Virus record (IMG/VR): IMGVR_UViG_2534681938_000031
From: a virus
Taxonomy: Duplodnaviria > Heunggongvirae > Uroviricota > Caudoviricetes
Direction: 5' to 3' (one strand)
DNA: 10,931 bases
In this document: one piece after another, positions 9,001 to 10,931 of the stretch
Position numbering within the stretch: position 1 is the stretch's first letter
How the letters are laid out: every line of letters starts with the position of its first letter
Program-made: the position numbers

Positions 9001-10931
9001 AACGTCCGAAGGTTGCGCCGGAACTTACCGCAGCCTTTGAAAACTTTATGGACATGCACAGCCCGCAAGCCGTATCAGCTGGCATGGCATACGATGGCAG
9101 AAACCAGGGCGATGACGGCGACATCGATCGCATACTGAAAACCATCTGAGACAAGGCCGGAGAAATCCGGCTTTTTTACGGGTCCTTCCTGGAATTATGG
9201 CCCGTTACGGGGCGGCGACCTCGCGGATTTTCGCTATTTATGAGCCTTTTCAGGGTGGTGGTGGTGGTTTTGTTGTTTGATCTATCTTTATGAATGAAAA
9301 GGGAAAGATGCAAGCAATACACCAACCTGAAGCAGTAATTAAGTTGGTGTATTAATGAAATCTCATCTGATGAACAAAAAAAACATGGCGAAAAGCTGCC
9401 GTGTAAGTGCGACAGCGTTCGACAAGTGGGGAGTAACTCCCGTTGAGCGTAAAGGCCGTGAGGCGTTTTATGATGTTGCCAGCGTGATAGAAAATAGGGT
9501 TAACAATGCAATTAGCCAGCTTATAAACGACAAAGGCGAGATTGACGATGATGAACTTTTACGAGTCAGGATCAGATTACTGACAGCACAGGCAGAGGCG
9601 CAGGAACTTAAAAACGATCGCGATCGCGGTGACGTGATTGATACTGAGTTTTGCCTGTACGCGCTTTCAAAGCTGGCGAGTCAGATTTCATCAATCATGG
9701 ACAGCCTCCCGCTTACTATGCAAAGGAGCTTCCCACAGATTACCCCCGCCATGCTGGACAGGCTTAAAAGGGAAGTGGTTAAAGCCTGTAATGCCAGTGC
9801 CAGAGTTGCCGACAACCTCCCACAGATACTGGCTGATTACTTGAAAGAAACAACCGGAAACGTACCGGAAAAGTTGCTACAGAAGAAAGGCGAGTAACAG
9901 ACGCGCAATTATTGAACAAAAATGAGAAAGGATCTGATAATGGCATTTTCTGGCTAAAATGCCTCGTGTCAGATCCTTTCTTTTTTAATATTTTCATTGT
10001 TAAACAGTCTGTTACAGAGAAGAAGATCGGATCTGACTTTTGCCGGAAAATTCTCATAAACAGATAAAAACCGCGAGGTCGCCGCCCCGTAACGGGCCAT
10101 AATTCCAGGAAGGACCCGACGACACCAGACTATCAGAGCGATGGGGGCACAATGACAGAAGCCGAACTACTGGGATTAATCCGCCGCGTCGCCGGAATCA
10201 GCCAGCAGCATGACGAACAGGCCACACAGCCGGACAGCGTGACCGCTGAAAATTATGTGCGTGTTGTAGCGGAAGTGATGCGCCGTGATGGTATAGAACT
10301 TAATGGCGTTGATATGCGCAACATACGGAACCGCGTTCTTGAAATGCTGGCCTACAATCGCCGCGTTGAACTGTATCGGGAGAAAGAAAAATAACGTACC
10401 ACTGGAAGAAGCCGGAACGGCTGCGGCGGTAACTTGCTGATATTCCCGATAACGCAAAATTGCGCTGGCTACATCCTCACATCTGAGGACTGTTAATCAG
10501 AAGGCCGGAATATATTCACAAACTACGAAATTTTCGTAGTTTAATTAATGGTCTGAACCGCCCCGGGTTTCCTGGAGAGTGTTTTATCTGTGAACTCAGG
10601 CTGCCAGATCATCGTTTCCGATGGAAGCATAATAAGCTTTTTCTGCTTCTGCCGGAGGAGTATGGCCCAGCCTTCCCAGCAATCGTCGATTGTTATACCA
10701 GTCCACCCACGTTAGTGTGGCCAGTTCCACTTCTGCACGGTTTTTCCAGCTCTTACGGTGTATTACCTCCGCTTTGTAAAGACCATTGATGCTCTCAGCC
10801 ATCGCGTTGTCATACGAGTCGCCTGTACTCCCTGTTGATGCCAGTAATCCGGCTTCTTTTAGTCGCTCCGTATAGGCCAGTGACACATACTGAGAGCCTT
10901 TATCGCTGTGATGGATGGTGCCAGACGGACG

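What the first reader, a model, noticed from the sequence alone, without database searches (positions are those of the whole stretch)
9926..10070. cosB with a lambda-like R3/R2/R1 layout but a different repeat sequence, paired with a diverged Nu1-like TerS
Downstream of the minus-strand cosN lie three copies of TCAGATCC(G/T)(A/T)TCT: two direct and one inverted, the inverted one forming a hairpin with the distal copy. Spacing mirrors the lambda R3, R2 (inverted), R1 arrangement, but lambda's R sites read CGTTTCC(G/T)TTCT as I recall. Identical cosN with a changed cosB and a cognate TerS is the lambda versus phage 21 specificity pattern, so this TerS probably directs a helper large terminase to the island's own cos. 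The terS gene is convergent with cosB, whereas in lambda cosB precedes Nu1.
Basis: partly seen in the sequence, partly recalled or inferred. Interest (0 to 1): 0.7.

Follow-up and report, generated by a model that had tools for sequence, protein, structure and literature searches.

The report
Second, phage-type cos site in PICI
The three repeats are a genuine lambda-style terminase-binding site (cosB) of the class used by phage Gifsy-1. It forms a second, inverted packaging site in an E. coli O157 satellite island, and it is not the target of the island's own small terminase, whose site lies upstream of its gene.

Summary
TCAGATCC(G/T)(A/T)TCT occurs three times and nowhere else in the window. 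Counted from the minus-strand cosN, the copies lie at bp 53-64, 107-118 (inverted) and 152-163. Lambda R3/R2/R1 lie at 53-64, 109-120 and 155-166.

The window is an EcCICFT073-family PICI (O-island 51). It has two inverted cos sites flanking terS, as the published cos1/cos2 flank rppA.

The AGATCC R-site class is a phage class. In Gifsy-1, SerU-LTIIb and about 65 phage loci it always precedes a Nu1 with the recognition helix CDVRT(I/V)T-WQSQG. The island TerS has a different helix, CRVSATAFDKW.

Islands with an identical TerS DNA-binding domain carry an AGATCC-type cos2, a phage-21-type cos2, or no cos2. In contrast, the cos upstream of terS (9210-9354, motif GGTGGTGGT..GTTGTT at bp 45-70) always accompanies this domain. 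Satellites with a 21-like domain have 21-type R sites upstream.

Conclusion: cos1 is the likely cognate site, and the flagged cosB is an interchangeable, helper-type accessory cos2. Whether cos2 is used today in O157 is uncertain, because no cognate prophage was found there. I rate it a new variant of a known kind, of moderate interest.

The parts
9180..9186 (+). cosQ-like heptamer GGGTCCT of cos1, 30-24 bp upstream of the cos1 nick position
   Evidence: Read from the sequence. It is invariant in the alignment of 13 distinct cos1 sequences.
9210..9221 (+). cosN of cos1: GGGCGGCGACCT, identical to the lambda cohesive end
   Evidence: It precedes terS in the lambda order; the terS start codon is at bp 146.
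9222..9243 (+). Lambda-like I2 segment of cos1 (CGCGGATTTTCGCTATTTATGA)
   Evidence: Aligns with lambda bp 13-34.
9254..9279 (+). Candidate R3-equivalent for the island TerS: GGTGGTGGTGGTGGTTTTGTTGTTTG, bp 45-70 of cos1
   Evidence: The block GGTGGTGGTTT.GT is invariant in 13 distinct cos1 sequences. The motif is found in 81 of 89 loci that encode this DNA-binding domain. It is retained at bp 50-68 in Enterobacter/Citrobacter elements whose TerS is only 57% identical. Binding is inferred, not shown.
9319..9331 (+). Second conserved block of cos1, ACACCAACCTGAA. Its reverse complement resembles the GGTGGTGG motif, so it may be an inverted R2-like site.
   Evidence: Invariant. In the window it forms an 11-nt perfect inverted repeat with 9343-9353 (I13), but the right arm varies among islands and overlaps the terS ribosome-binding site.
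9355..9897 (+). terS: 180-aa Nu1-family small terminase with a diverged N-terminal DNA-binding domain ('type 1') and a lambda/21-like C-terminal end
   Evidence: Pfam PF07471, E 3e-23. BLASTP against lambda Nu1 gives 36% identity, E 1e-33, over the full length. The domain is invariant across 15 homologues down to 56% identity.
9925..9937 (-). R1 of cos2 (TCAGATCCTTTCT), bp 151-163 from the minus-strand cosN
9969..9981 (+). R2 of cos2 (TCAGATCCTTTCT, inverted), bp 107-119. With R1 it forms a long hairpin followed by a T-run on the terS-sense strand.
   Evidence: The RNA fold has dG -33.5 kcal/mol and z -5.6.
10024..10036 (-). R3 of cos2 (TCAGATCCGATCT), bp 52-64. Most related islands and phages read GTTCT where this lineage reads GATCT.
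10054..10075 (-). I2-like segment of cos2
   Evidence: Alignment with lambda bp 13-34.
10076..10087 (-). cosN of cos2 (GGGCGGCGACCT on the minus strand)
10111..10117 (-). cosQ-like heptamer GGGTCCT of cos2
   Evidence: Read from the sequence. It lies in the right arm of the 76-nt inverted repeat (I1).

Best explanation
The window is an EcCICFT073-family phage-inducible chromosomal island (O-island 51 of E. coli O157:H7). Its packaging cassette holds two inverted cos sites around a terS gene.

The flagged repeats are the R3, R2 and R1 sites of cos2. This is a complete lambda-type cos: cosQ, cosN, I2 and a three-site cosB. Its R-site sequence is that of the Gifsy-1 / SerU-LTIIb class of lambdoid phages. 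It is therefore a helper-type cosB. I infer that it can be recognised directly by the small terminase of a helper phage of that class, whose large subunit then cuts the lambda-type cosN.

It is not the cognate site of the island's own TerS. That TerS has a different DNA-binding domain. It most likely binds the cosB of cos1 (9222-9354, core GGTGGTGGT..GTTGTT at bp 45-70), which lies upstream of terS in the lambda order. Through its lambda/21-like C-terminal end it would recruit a helper large terminase to cos1.

Shown here: the homology, positions and phage distribution of the AGATCC cosB; the lack of association between cos2 type and TerS domain; and the strict association of cos1 type with TerS domain. 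Inferred: DNA binding, recruitment of TerL, and present-day use of cos2.
For: cos2 aligns with lambda, Gifsy-1 and 21-type cos sites, and R3 sits at exactly bp 53-64.

Gifsy-1 has CCAGATCCGTTCT / AGAAAGGATCTGC / GCAGATCCTTTCC, followed by a TerS that starts MNVNKKKLAEIFGCDVRTVTAWQSQG. The E. coli M8 prophage and SerU-LTIIb are of the same kind.

Of 99 IMG/VR stretches with this cosB, about two thirds are phages with the order cosN-cosB-Nu1(M8-like)-TerL. These include L105 and L081, which have the lambda cosN. The rest are satellites in which the cosB is convergent with terS.

Satellite TerS proteins have two domain types over a shared C-terminal end. The 21-like type has 21-type R3/R2/R1 upstream of terS, and the window type has the GGTGGTGG block upstream. 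Both have the AGATCC cos2 downstream.

Among 80 loci with the window-type TerS, cos2 is AGATCC-type, 21-type with the same flanks, or absent. The identical 48-aa domain occurs with all three states. L002 and L003 lack the AGATCC cos2.

In complete E. coli genomes, the window-type terS is found in 757 and this cosB in 383.

Published precedent: EcCICFT073 has cos1 directly upstream of rppA, which is needed and cognate, and a dispensable cos2 (PMC6092414, PMC6739421). An Rpp-type island at the same phoQ locus shows the same inverted two-cos layout.
Against: No prophage with an AGATCC-type cosB and its cognate TerS was found in O157:H7. Megablast found the M8/SerU type in only 38 of 5426 complete E. 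coli genomes, and none of the listed ones is O157:H7. An O157-type Stx1 phage has lambda-type R sites. So cos2 may be idle in this host.

The O157 lineage has a T-to-A change inside R3, at bp 61.

No binding or packaging data exist for this TerS or for either cos site.

The fold of the TerS DNA-binding domain could not be confirmed: the AlphaFold model has mean pLDDT 58 and Foldseek gave nothing significant.

The IHF site between R3 and R2 is only a one-mismatch consensus match.
Confidence: 0.7

Rival explanations
1. One reading: the TCAGATCC repeats are the cognate binding sites of the island's diverged TerS, which uses them to direct a helper large terminase to the minus-strand cos.
For: The repeats lie next to terS, and a changed cosB sits beside an unchanged cosN. 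The convergent junction between terS and the AGATCC cosB is conserved in many satellites.
Against: An identical TerS DNA-binding domain occurs with a 21-type cos2 or with none. Satellites with a 21-like domain carry the same AGATCC cos2. In phages this cosB always pairs with a quite different recognition helix. A second cos in the canonical position upstream of terS co-varies with the domain.
Confidence: 0.07
2. cos2 is a relic of past recombination with a phage or another satellite and no longer works in packaging. What selection keeps in place is the R1/R2 hairpin with its T-run, acting as the intrinsic terminator of the capsid-terS operon.
For: The terS-sense RNA folds into a hairpin of -33.5 kcal/mol (z -5.6) followed by UUUUUU. 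cos2 is deleted or degenerate in many islands. No cognate prophage was found in O157:H7. There is a substitution in R3. EcCICFT073 cos2 is dispensable (PMC6092414).
Against: All three R sites, I2, cosN and cosQ are kept intact, at lambda spacing, across satellites that differ in integrase, TerS domain type and even cosN sequence. A terminator needs only R1 and R2. The 21-type allele of cos2 is equally complete. Cloned EcCICFT073 cos2 did allow phage-mediated plasmid transfer (PMC6092414).
Confidence: 0.18
3. cos2 is a decoy. A helper-type cosB on the amplified island soaks up the helper's own TerS or terminase, or provokes unproductive cutting, and so contributes to interference with the helper rather than to island transfer.
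For: PICIs interfere with helper packaging (PMC6739421). cos2 is inverted relative to cos1. Deleting cos2 in EcCICFT073 raised transfer (PMC6092414).
Against: Nothing here bears on it directly. A complete cos in a replicating concatemer would itself be packaged, so a decoy role and a packaging role cannot be told apart by sequence.
Confidence: 0.05

Closest known systems
cos of Salmonella phage Gifsy-1 (NC_010392), and of E. coli prophages of the SerU-LTIIb / strain M8 type
   Same: The R-site core AGATCC(G/T)TTC is the same. The order and orientation R3-R2(inverted)-R1 are the same, and so are the positions (Gifsy-1 54-63, 110-119, 155-164). The I2 segment is homologous.
   Different: In those phages the cosB is followed, co-oriented, by its Nu1 and TerL genes. 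Here it abuts the 3' end of a convergent, non-cognate terS. The Gifsy-1 cosN differs from lambda at three positions and the M8 cosN differs more, whereas the island has the exact lambda cosN. The window's R3 reads GATCT instead of GTTCT.
EcCICFT073 cos1 / rppA / cos2 packaging module (Fillol-Salom 2018, 2019; Murialdo and Feiss 2022)
   Same: Same island family: integrase, replication genes, capsid E and D homologues. Two lambda-type cos sites in inverted orientation flank the specificity gene, and the cognate site lies directly upstream of that gene (PMC6092414, PMC6739421, PMC9026076).
   Different: The specificity gene here is a full-length Nu1-type TerS with a TerL-binding-like C-terminal end, not the shorter Rpp, which needs the helper TerS. 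Here cos2 carries a recognisable three-site phage cosB, whereas no phage cosB could be found in either EcCICFT073 cos site.
Lambda versus phage 21 packaging specificity (TerS recognition helix paired with R sites)
   Same: Same cosQ/cosN with a different cosB R sequence. The pairing rule is visible here: 21-like domains sit behind 21-type R sites and Gifsy-type domains behind AGATCC sites.
   Different: The pairing rule assigns the AGATCC sites to a phage TerS class that the window does not encode.
Satellites that carry a copy of their helper's cos (P4, SaPIbov5, helper-embedded PICI 11capE)
   Same: A satellite carries a phage-type cos, so the unmodified helper terminase can package it (10.1101/2022.09.08.507074; PMC10111431).
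   Different: Here the helper-type cos is the second of two cos sites. It coexists with a satellite-encoded TerS and that TerS's own cos, and it exists in at least two interchangeable specificity alleles.
SaPI TerS strategy (pac SaPIs)
   Same: A satellite-encoded small terminase is presumed to pair with the helper large terminase and to recognise a satellite-specific site.
   Different: This is a cos system, not a headful pac system. No Ppi-like partner was identified, and the function has not been tested.

Membership tests
Lambda-type complex cos (cosQ-cosN-I2-R3-I1-R2-R1) | 12-bp cosN with a cosQ heptamer about 24-30 bp upstream | tested here: met
   GGGCGGCGACCT lies at 10087-10076 (-) and GGGTCCT at 10117-10111 (-).
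Lambda-type complex cos (cosQ-cosN-I2-R3-I1-R2-R1) | Three R sequences, with R3 at about bp 50-65, R2 inverted and R1 direct | tested here: met
   The sites lie at bp 53-64, 107-118 (inverted) and 152-163, against lambda 53-64, 109-120 and 155-166. None of 200 shuffles gave three matches.
Lambda-type complex cos (cosQ-cosN-I2-R3-I1-R2-R1) | IHF site I1 between R3 and R2 | tested here: inconclusive
   There is one match to WATCAANNNNTTR with one mismatch, at bp 90-102. Lambda's known I1 also scores one mismatch in the same scan.
Lambda-type complex cos (cosQ-cosN-I2-R3-I1-R2-R1) | cosB followed by the co-oriented cognate terS gene | tested here: not met
   terS (9355-9897, +) is convergent with this cosB. 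About 27 bp separate R1 from the terS stop codon.
Gifsy-1 / SerU-LTIIb cosB specificity class | R-site core AGATCC(G/T)TTC in all three sites | tested here: met
   R2 and R1 match exactly. R3 has one change, GATC for GTTC.
Gifsy-1 / SerU-LTIIb cosB specificity class | An adjacent TerS with the recognition helix CDVRT(I/V)T-WQSQG | tested here: not met
   The window TerS reads CRVSATAFDKWG at that place. No such TerS is encoded in the window.
Nu1-family small terminase (Pfam PF07471) | Profile match above the curated cut-off | tested here: met
   82.6 bits against a cut-off of 30, residues 33-148. BLASTP against lambda Nu1 gives E 1e-33 over residues 6-166.
Nu1-family small terminase (Pfam PF07471) | N-terminal winged helix-turn-helix DNA-binding domain | tested here: inconclusive
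   The sequence aligns with lambda residues 3-50, with two 3-residue deletions. The AlphaFold model shows strand-helix-helix-strand-strand-helix, but its pLDDT is 58. There is no significant Foldseek or PDB sequence match.
Nu1-family small terminase (Pfam PF07471) | C-terminal segment that binds the large terminase | not testable with these tools
   Only sequence similarity can be shown: residues 126-166 align with the last 40 residues of lambda Nu1.
EcCICFT073-type Gram-negative PICI | Integrase, replication module and capsid E/D homologues, all transcribed rightward, in an island of about 10-15 kb | tested here: met
   Pfam hits. PGAP annotation of the identical island between roxA and phoQ.
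EcCICFT073-type Gram-negative PICI | Two cos sites flanking the packaging-specificity gene | tested here: met
   cosN at 9210-9221 (+) and at 10076-10087 (-). The Rpp-type island L004 has the same layout.
EcCICFT073-type Gram-negative PICI | Rpp protein as the specificity factor | tested here: not met
   A 180-aa Nu1-type TerS occupies the rpp position. tblastn with the Rpp of L004 finds nothing in the window. Neither ORF matches any PDB chain, Rpp entries included.
EcCICFT073-type Gram-negative PICI | Induction and transfer by a helper phage | not testable with these tools
   This needs experiments.

The most novel reading that the evidence does not exclude
The packaging cassette of these islands is a two-faced, invertible module. 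One cos is read by the island's own TerS. A second, interchangeable cos mimics a helper phage and exists in at least phage-21-type and Gifsy-1-type alleles. Together they would let one island be packaged by lambdoid helpers of several specificity classes. Recombination at the shared cosQ-cosN-I2 repeats would swap and flip these modules, which would make the repeats the engine of packaging-specificity evolution in cos satellites.
Probability: 0.35. Interest if true: 0.65.

Novelty: new variant of a known kind. Interest (0 to 1): 0.5.

Why it matters
O-island 51 and its relatives are widespread. The window-type terS is present in 757 of 5426 complete E. coli genomes, and the islands carry virulence regulators. 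Which phages can move them depends on which cos sites they carry.

The only published mechanism for this island family is Rpp, which reprograms the helper TerS towards cos1. The present locus points to a second solution: a complete island TerS with its own cos, together with a swappable helper-type cos.

If confirmed, this predicts helper range from sequence. It also supplies natural cos chimeras (lambda cosN joined to a Gifsy-1 or 21 cosB) for work on terminase specificity. Finally, it gives the unexplained second cos site of these islands a testable role.

Tried and rejected
1. A scan of one genome per species (genome contigs) with the single TerS protein confirmed no relative.

2. PDB sequence searches with the TerS and with the 137-aa ORF upstream of cos1 matched neither the lambda Nu1 domain nor Rpp. 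I first suspected the 137-aa ORF of being Rpp; it is not.

3. The AlphaFold model of the TerS built from 15 homologues was of low confidence (pLDDT 58). The Foldseek PDB search gave nothing significant. Winged-helix proteins (an ArsR homologue, GlnR) rank at the top only at E 0.07-0.5, so the fold is left open.

4. The simple terminator scan missed the R1/R2 hairpin because its loop is too long. Direct folding showed it.

5. I considered that inverting the segment between the two cos repeats would place this cosB in front of terS. It would not, because inversion keeps cosB and terS convergent.

6. I looked for a resident helper with an AGATCC-type cosB in O157:H7 and found none. Megablast would miss prophages below about 85% identity.

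7. Literature searches found no description of TerS-encoding E. coli PICIs' cos sites, or of phage-type cosB in a PICI cos2. The library does not hold subscription journals.
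Full report
**What is in the window**

The 10.9-kb window is a phage-inducible chromosomal island. It encodes a tyrosine integrase (1-1230), a RepA/AAA_25 helicase, an SSB, homologues of the lambda capsid proteins E (7320-8375) and D (8388-8723), a 137-aa ORF, and a Nu1-family small terminase (9355-9897). An island 99.9% identical over the 9150-10150 segment lies between roxA and phoQ in E. coli O157:H7 genomes, where PGAP annotates the same genes. 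The literature equates this element with O-island 51 and places it in the EcCICFT073 family of Gram-negative PICIs (PMC6092414).

**The observation**

TCAGATCC(G/T)(A/T)TCT occurs at 9925-9937 (-), 9969-9981 (+) and 10024-10036 (-), and nowhere else in the window even with one mismatch. None of 200 shuffles gave three matches.

The lambda cohesive-end sequence GGGCGGCGACCT is at 10076-10087 on the minus strand. Numbered from that cosN, the repeat cores lie at bp 53-64, 107-118 (inverted) and 152-163. In lambda, CGTTTCC(G/T)TTCT lies at 53-64, 109-120 (inverted) and 155-166.

The whole 200 bp aligns column by column with lambda, Gifsy-1, an E. coli prophage and a 21-type phage. The alignment includes the I2 segment and the TTCTTCTTC tail of R3.

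There is a second cosN on the plus strand at 9210-9221. It lies inside a 76-nt, 91% inverted repeat (9179-9254 / 10043-10118) that spans cosQ, cosN and I2. This copy stands in front of terS, whose start codon is at bp 146, in the lambda order. The locus therefore reads cos1(+) - terS(+) - cos2(-).

EcCICFT073 is already known to have two cos sites. cos1 lies directly upstream of rppA and is the one that the Rpp-TerS complex recognises. cos2 is dispensable (PMC6092414, PMC6739421, PMC9026076). An Rpp-type island at the same phoQ locus (L004) shows exactly this inverted layout, with rpp where terS is here.

**Whose cosB is the AGATCC type?**

A distant search of phage genomes led to phage SerU-LTIIb. 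Its cosB reads GCAGATCCGTTCT, AGAAAGGATCTGG and TGAGATCCTTTCT, and is followed by a Nu1 gene. Intact prophages of this type, for example in E. coli M8, have the order cos-Nu1-TerL-portal. Salmonella phage Gifsy-1 has the same R-site core at bp 54-63, 110-119 and 155-164. It has the cosN that Feiss and colleagues describe as differing from lambda at positions 8, 9 and 11 (PMC4669245).

A pattern scan of IMG/VR for R3 plus R2 gave 99 stretches.

- About two thirds are phages with cosN-cosB-Nu1-TerL and a capsid gene 6 kb downstream. Their Nu1 is 60-99% identical to the M8 protein, whose recognition helix is CDVRTITGWQSQ. The Gifsy-1 helix is CDVRTVTAWQSQ.
- Several cosN variants occur among these phages, including the exact lambda cosN in L105 and L081.
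- The remaining stretches are satellites of 10-14 kb in which the same cosB is convergent with a terS gene.

**Co-variation test**

The satellite TerS proteins fall into two N-terminal types that share a C-terminal end.

- The window type begins MKSHLMNKKNMAKSCRVSATAFDKWGVTPVERKGREAFYDV.
- The other type is phage-21-like: [26 protein letters not shown].

Upstream of terS, the 21-like satellites have a cos with 21-type sites (GCATGTCGG, the inverted ACGACAT, TTTCATGTCGG). The window-type satellites have a cos followed by GGTGGTGGTGG-TTTTGTTGTT and ACACCAACCTGAA. Both types carry the AGATCC cosB downstream. The upstream cosB therefore tracks the TerS DNA-binding domain, and the downstream one does not.

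Among 80 further IMG/VR loci with the window-type TerS, all are satellites and none has a TerL gene nearby. Their cos2 is one of three things:

- AGATCC-type;
- phage-21-type (GCATGTCGGTACTTCT, AGAAACGACACGG, TTTCATGTCGTTTCTC), with the same cosN, the same I2 and the same junction to terS;
- absent.

One and the same 48-aa domain sequence occurs with AGATCC-type cos2 six times, with 21-type cos2 ten times and with no cos2 six times. The upstream GGTGGTGGT motif is present in 81 of 89 loci. E. coli islands L002 and L003 have the window-type TerS and cos1, but a degenerate or deleted cos2.

In complete E. coli genomes the window-type terS is found in 757 and this cosB in 383. In Enterobacter and Citrobacter elements whose TerS is only 57% identical overall, the DNA-binding domain is nearly unchanged. 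TGGTGGTGGTGTTGTT is kept at bp 50-65 of the upstream cos although the rest of the spacer has diverged, and there is no cos2.

**The TerS itself**

It aligns with lambda Nu1 over its whole length (36% identity, E 1e-33). There are two three-residue deletions in the DNA-binding domain. One is at the C-terminal end of the recognition helix, where lambda has QEQ including Glu24. The other is in the wing. Its residues 126-166 resemble the TerL-binding end of lambda Nu1.

Unlike Rpp, which is 30-40 residues shorter and needs the helper TerS (PMC9026076), this protein looks like a complete small terminase. The fold of its N-terminal domain could not be confirmed. The model has pLDDT 58, with a strand-helix-helix-strand-strand-helix pattern, and the structure search gave nothing significant.

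**Most likely mechanism**

cos1 is the island's own site. It is read by the island TerS, probably at the GGTGGTGGT..GTTGTT block, which occupies the R3 position. That TerS would then recruit a helper large terminase to the lambda-type cosN.

cos2 is a helper-type cos. Its cosB belongs to the Gifsy-1 class, so a helper of that class could package the island with its unmodified terminase. This is what P4, SaPIbov5 and the helper-embedded PICI 11capE are thought to do with copies of their helpers' cos (10.1101/2022.09.08.507074; PMC10111431). That cos2 exists as alternative 21-type and Gifsy-type alleles in otherwise near-identical islands fits a role in setting helper range.

These functional steps are inferences. 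Only the sequence relationships are shown.

**Caveats**

I found no prophage with an AGATCC-type cosB and its cognate TerS in O157:H7. The M8/SerU type is detectable in only 38 of 5426 genomes, and an O157-type Stx1 phage has lambda-type R sites and Nu1. The O157 lineage also has a T-to-A change at bp 61 of R3.

On the terS-sense strand, R1 and R2 form a strong hairpin (-33.5 kcal/mol, z -5.6) followed by a U-run, which is a plausible terS terminator. A relic kept partly as a terminator is therefore a serious rival for this host. Against it, all three R sites, I2, cosN and cosQ are kept intact across satellites that differ in integrase, TerS type and cosN.

**Comparison and novelty**

The R-site class is that of a sequenced, named phage whose three R sites have been noted in print, so it is not new as a cosB. 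Two cos sites in this island family are also known.

What I did not find described are the following:

- a cos-type island TerS with its own upstream cosB;
- a cos2 that is a recognisable three-site phage cosB;
- allelic exchange of that cosB between specificity classes;
- inversion of the whole cassette.

I therefore rate the finding as a new variant of a known kind.

Noticed in passing
window 9179-9254 and 10043-10118; L023/L031 versus L034/L064: The cos1-terS-cos2 cassette is bounded by inverted cosQ-cosN-I2 repeats. Relative to the integrase and the downstream 93-aa gene, it occurs in both orientations among related satellites: L034 and L064 are flipped with respect to L023 and L031. This suggests inversion by recombination between the cos repeats.
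   Followed up: partly
L012 2508-2868; L103 1540-1900: In two satellites terS is deleted, so a 21-type cosB and an AGATCC-type cosB face each other only about 150 bp apart. These islands would depend entirely on helper small terminases.
   Followed up: partly
L004 5440-5690 (minus strand) compared with window 9222-9354: The cos2 of an Rpp-type island at the same phoQ site resembles a degenerate copy of the window's cos1 cosB (GAGGGAGGTTGTTGTTT ... GCAATACAACAACCTGA) without a terS gene. This hints that cos2 sites in Rpp islands are remnants of TerS-type cos modules.
   Followed up: partly
L020, L031, L032 (cos1 versus cos2): Within one satellite the two cos sites can have different cosN sequences, for example GGGGGTACGTGTAC at cos1 and GGGGGTAGCCATAC at cos2 in L020. 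The two sites may therefore address different large terminases as well.
   Followed up: no
L190-L197: Enterobacter/Citrobacter relatives with the same TerS DNA-binding domain sit inside a lambdoid prophage. A truncated capsid E gene, Packaging_FI and Phage_attach lie just downstream. This is the helper-embedded PICI configuration described by Williams and colleagues (PMC10111431).
   Followed up: no
window 8736-9149: The 137-aa ORF between the head-decoration gene and cos1 has no Pfam or PDB sequence match. One genome annotates it as a head-tail connector. In other islands of the family (L002, L003, L190) a 127-aa AlpA/HTH protein occupies its place.
   Followed up: no
window 9156-9178: A GC-rich hairpin with a T-run (GGCCGGAGAAATCCGGCTTTTTT) lies just upstream of the cosQ of cos1. 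It looks like an intrinsic terminator between the 137-aa ORF and the cos1-terS unit.
   Followed up: no
window 10596-10931 (minus strand): An ORF that runs off the right end of the window. No family scan was run on it. The one close relative that carries an insertion here (H16) has an IS3-like IS1203-family transposase annotated under the match, which suggests an IS3-family transposase fragment. The reference O157 island (L001) has no such insertion and runs on to phoQ.
   Followed up: no
window 10152-10394: The conserved small gene just beyond cos2 (80-93 aa, annotated as hypothetical) is present in nearly all relatives of the island. The literature says these islands encode the regulator RgdR, but I did not test whether this gene is it.
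   Followed up: no
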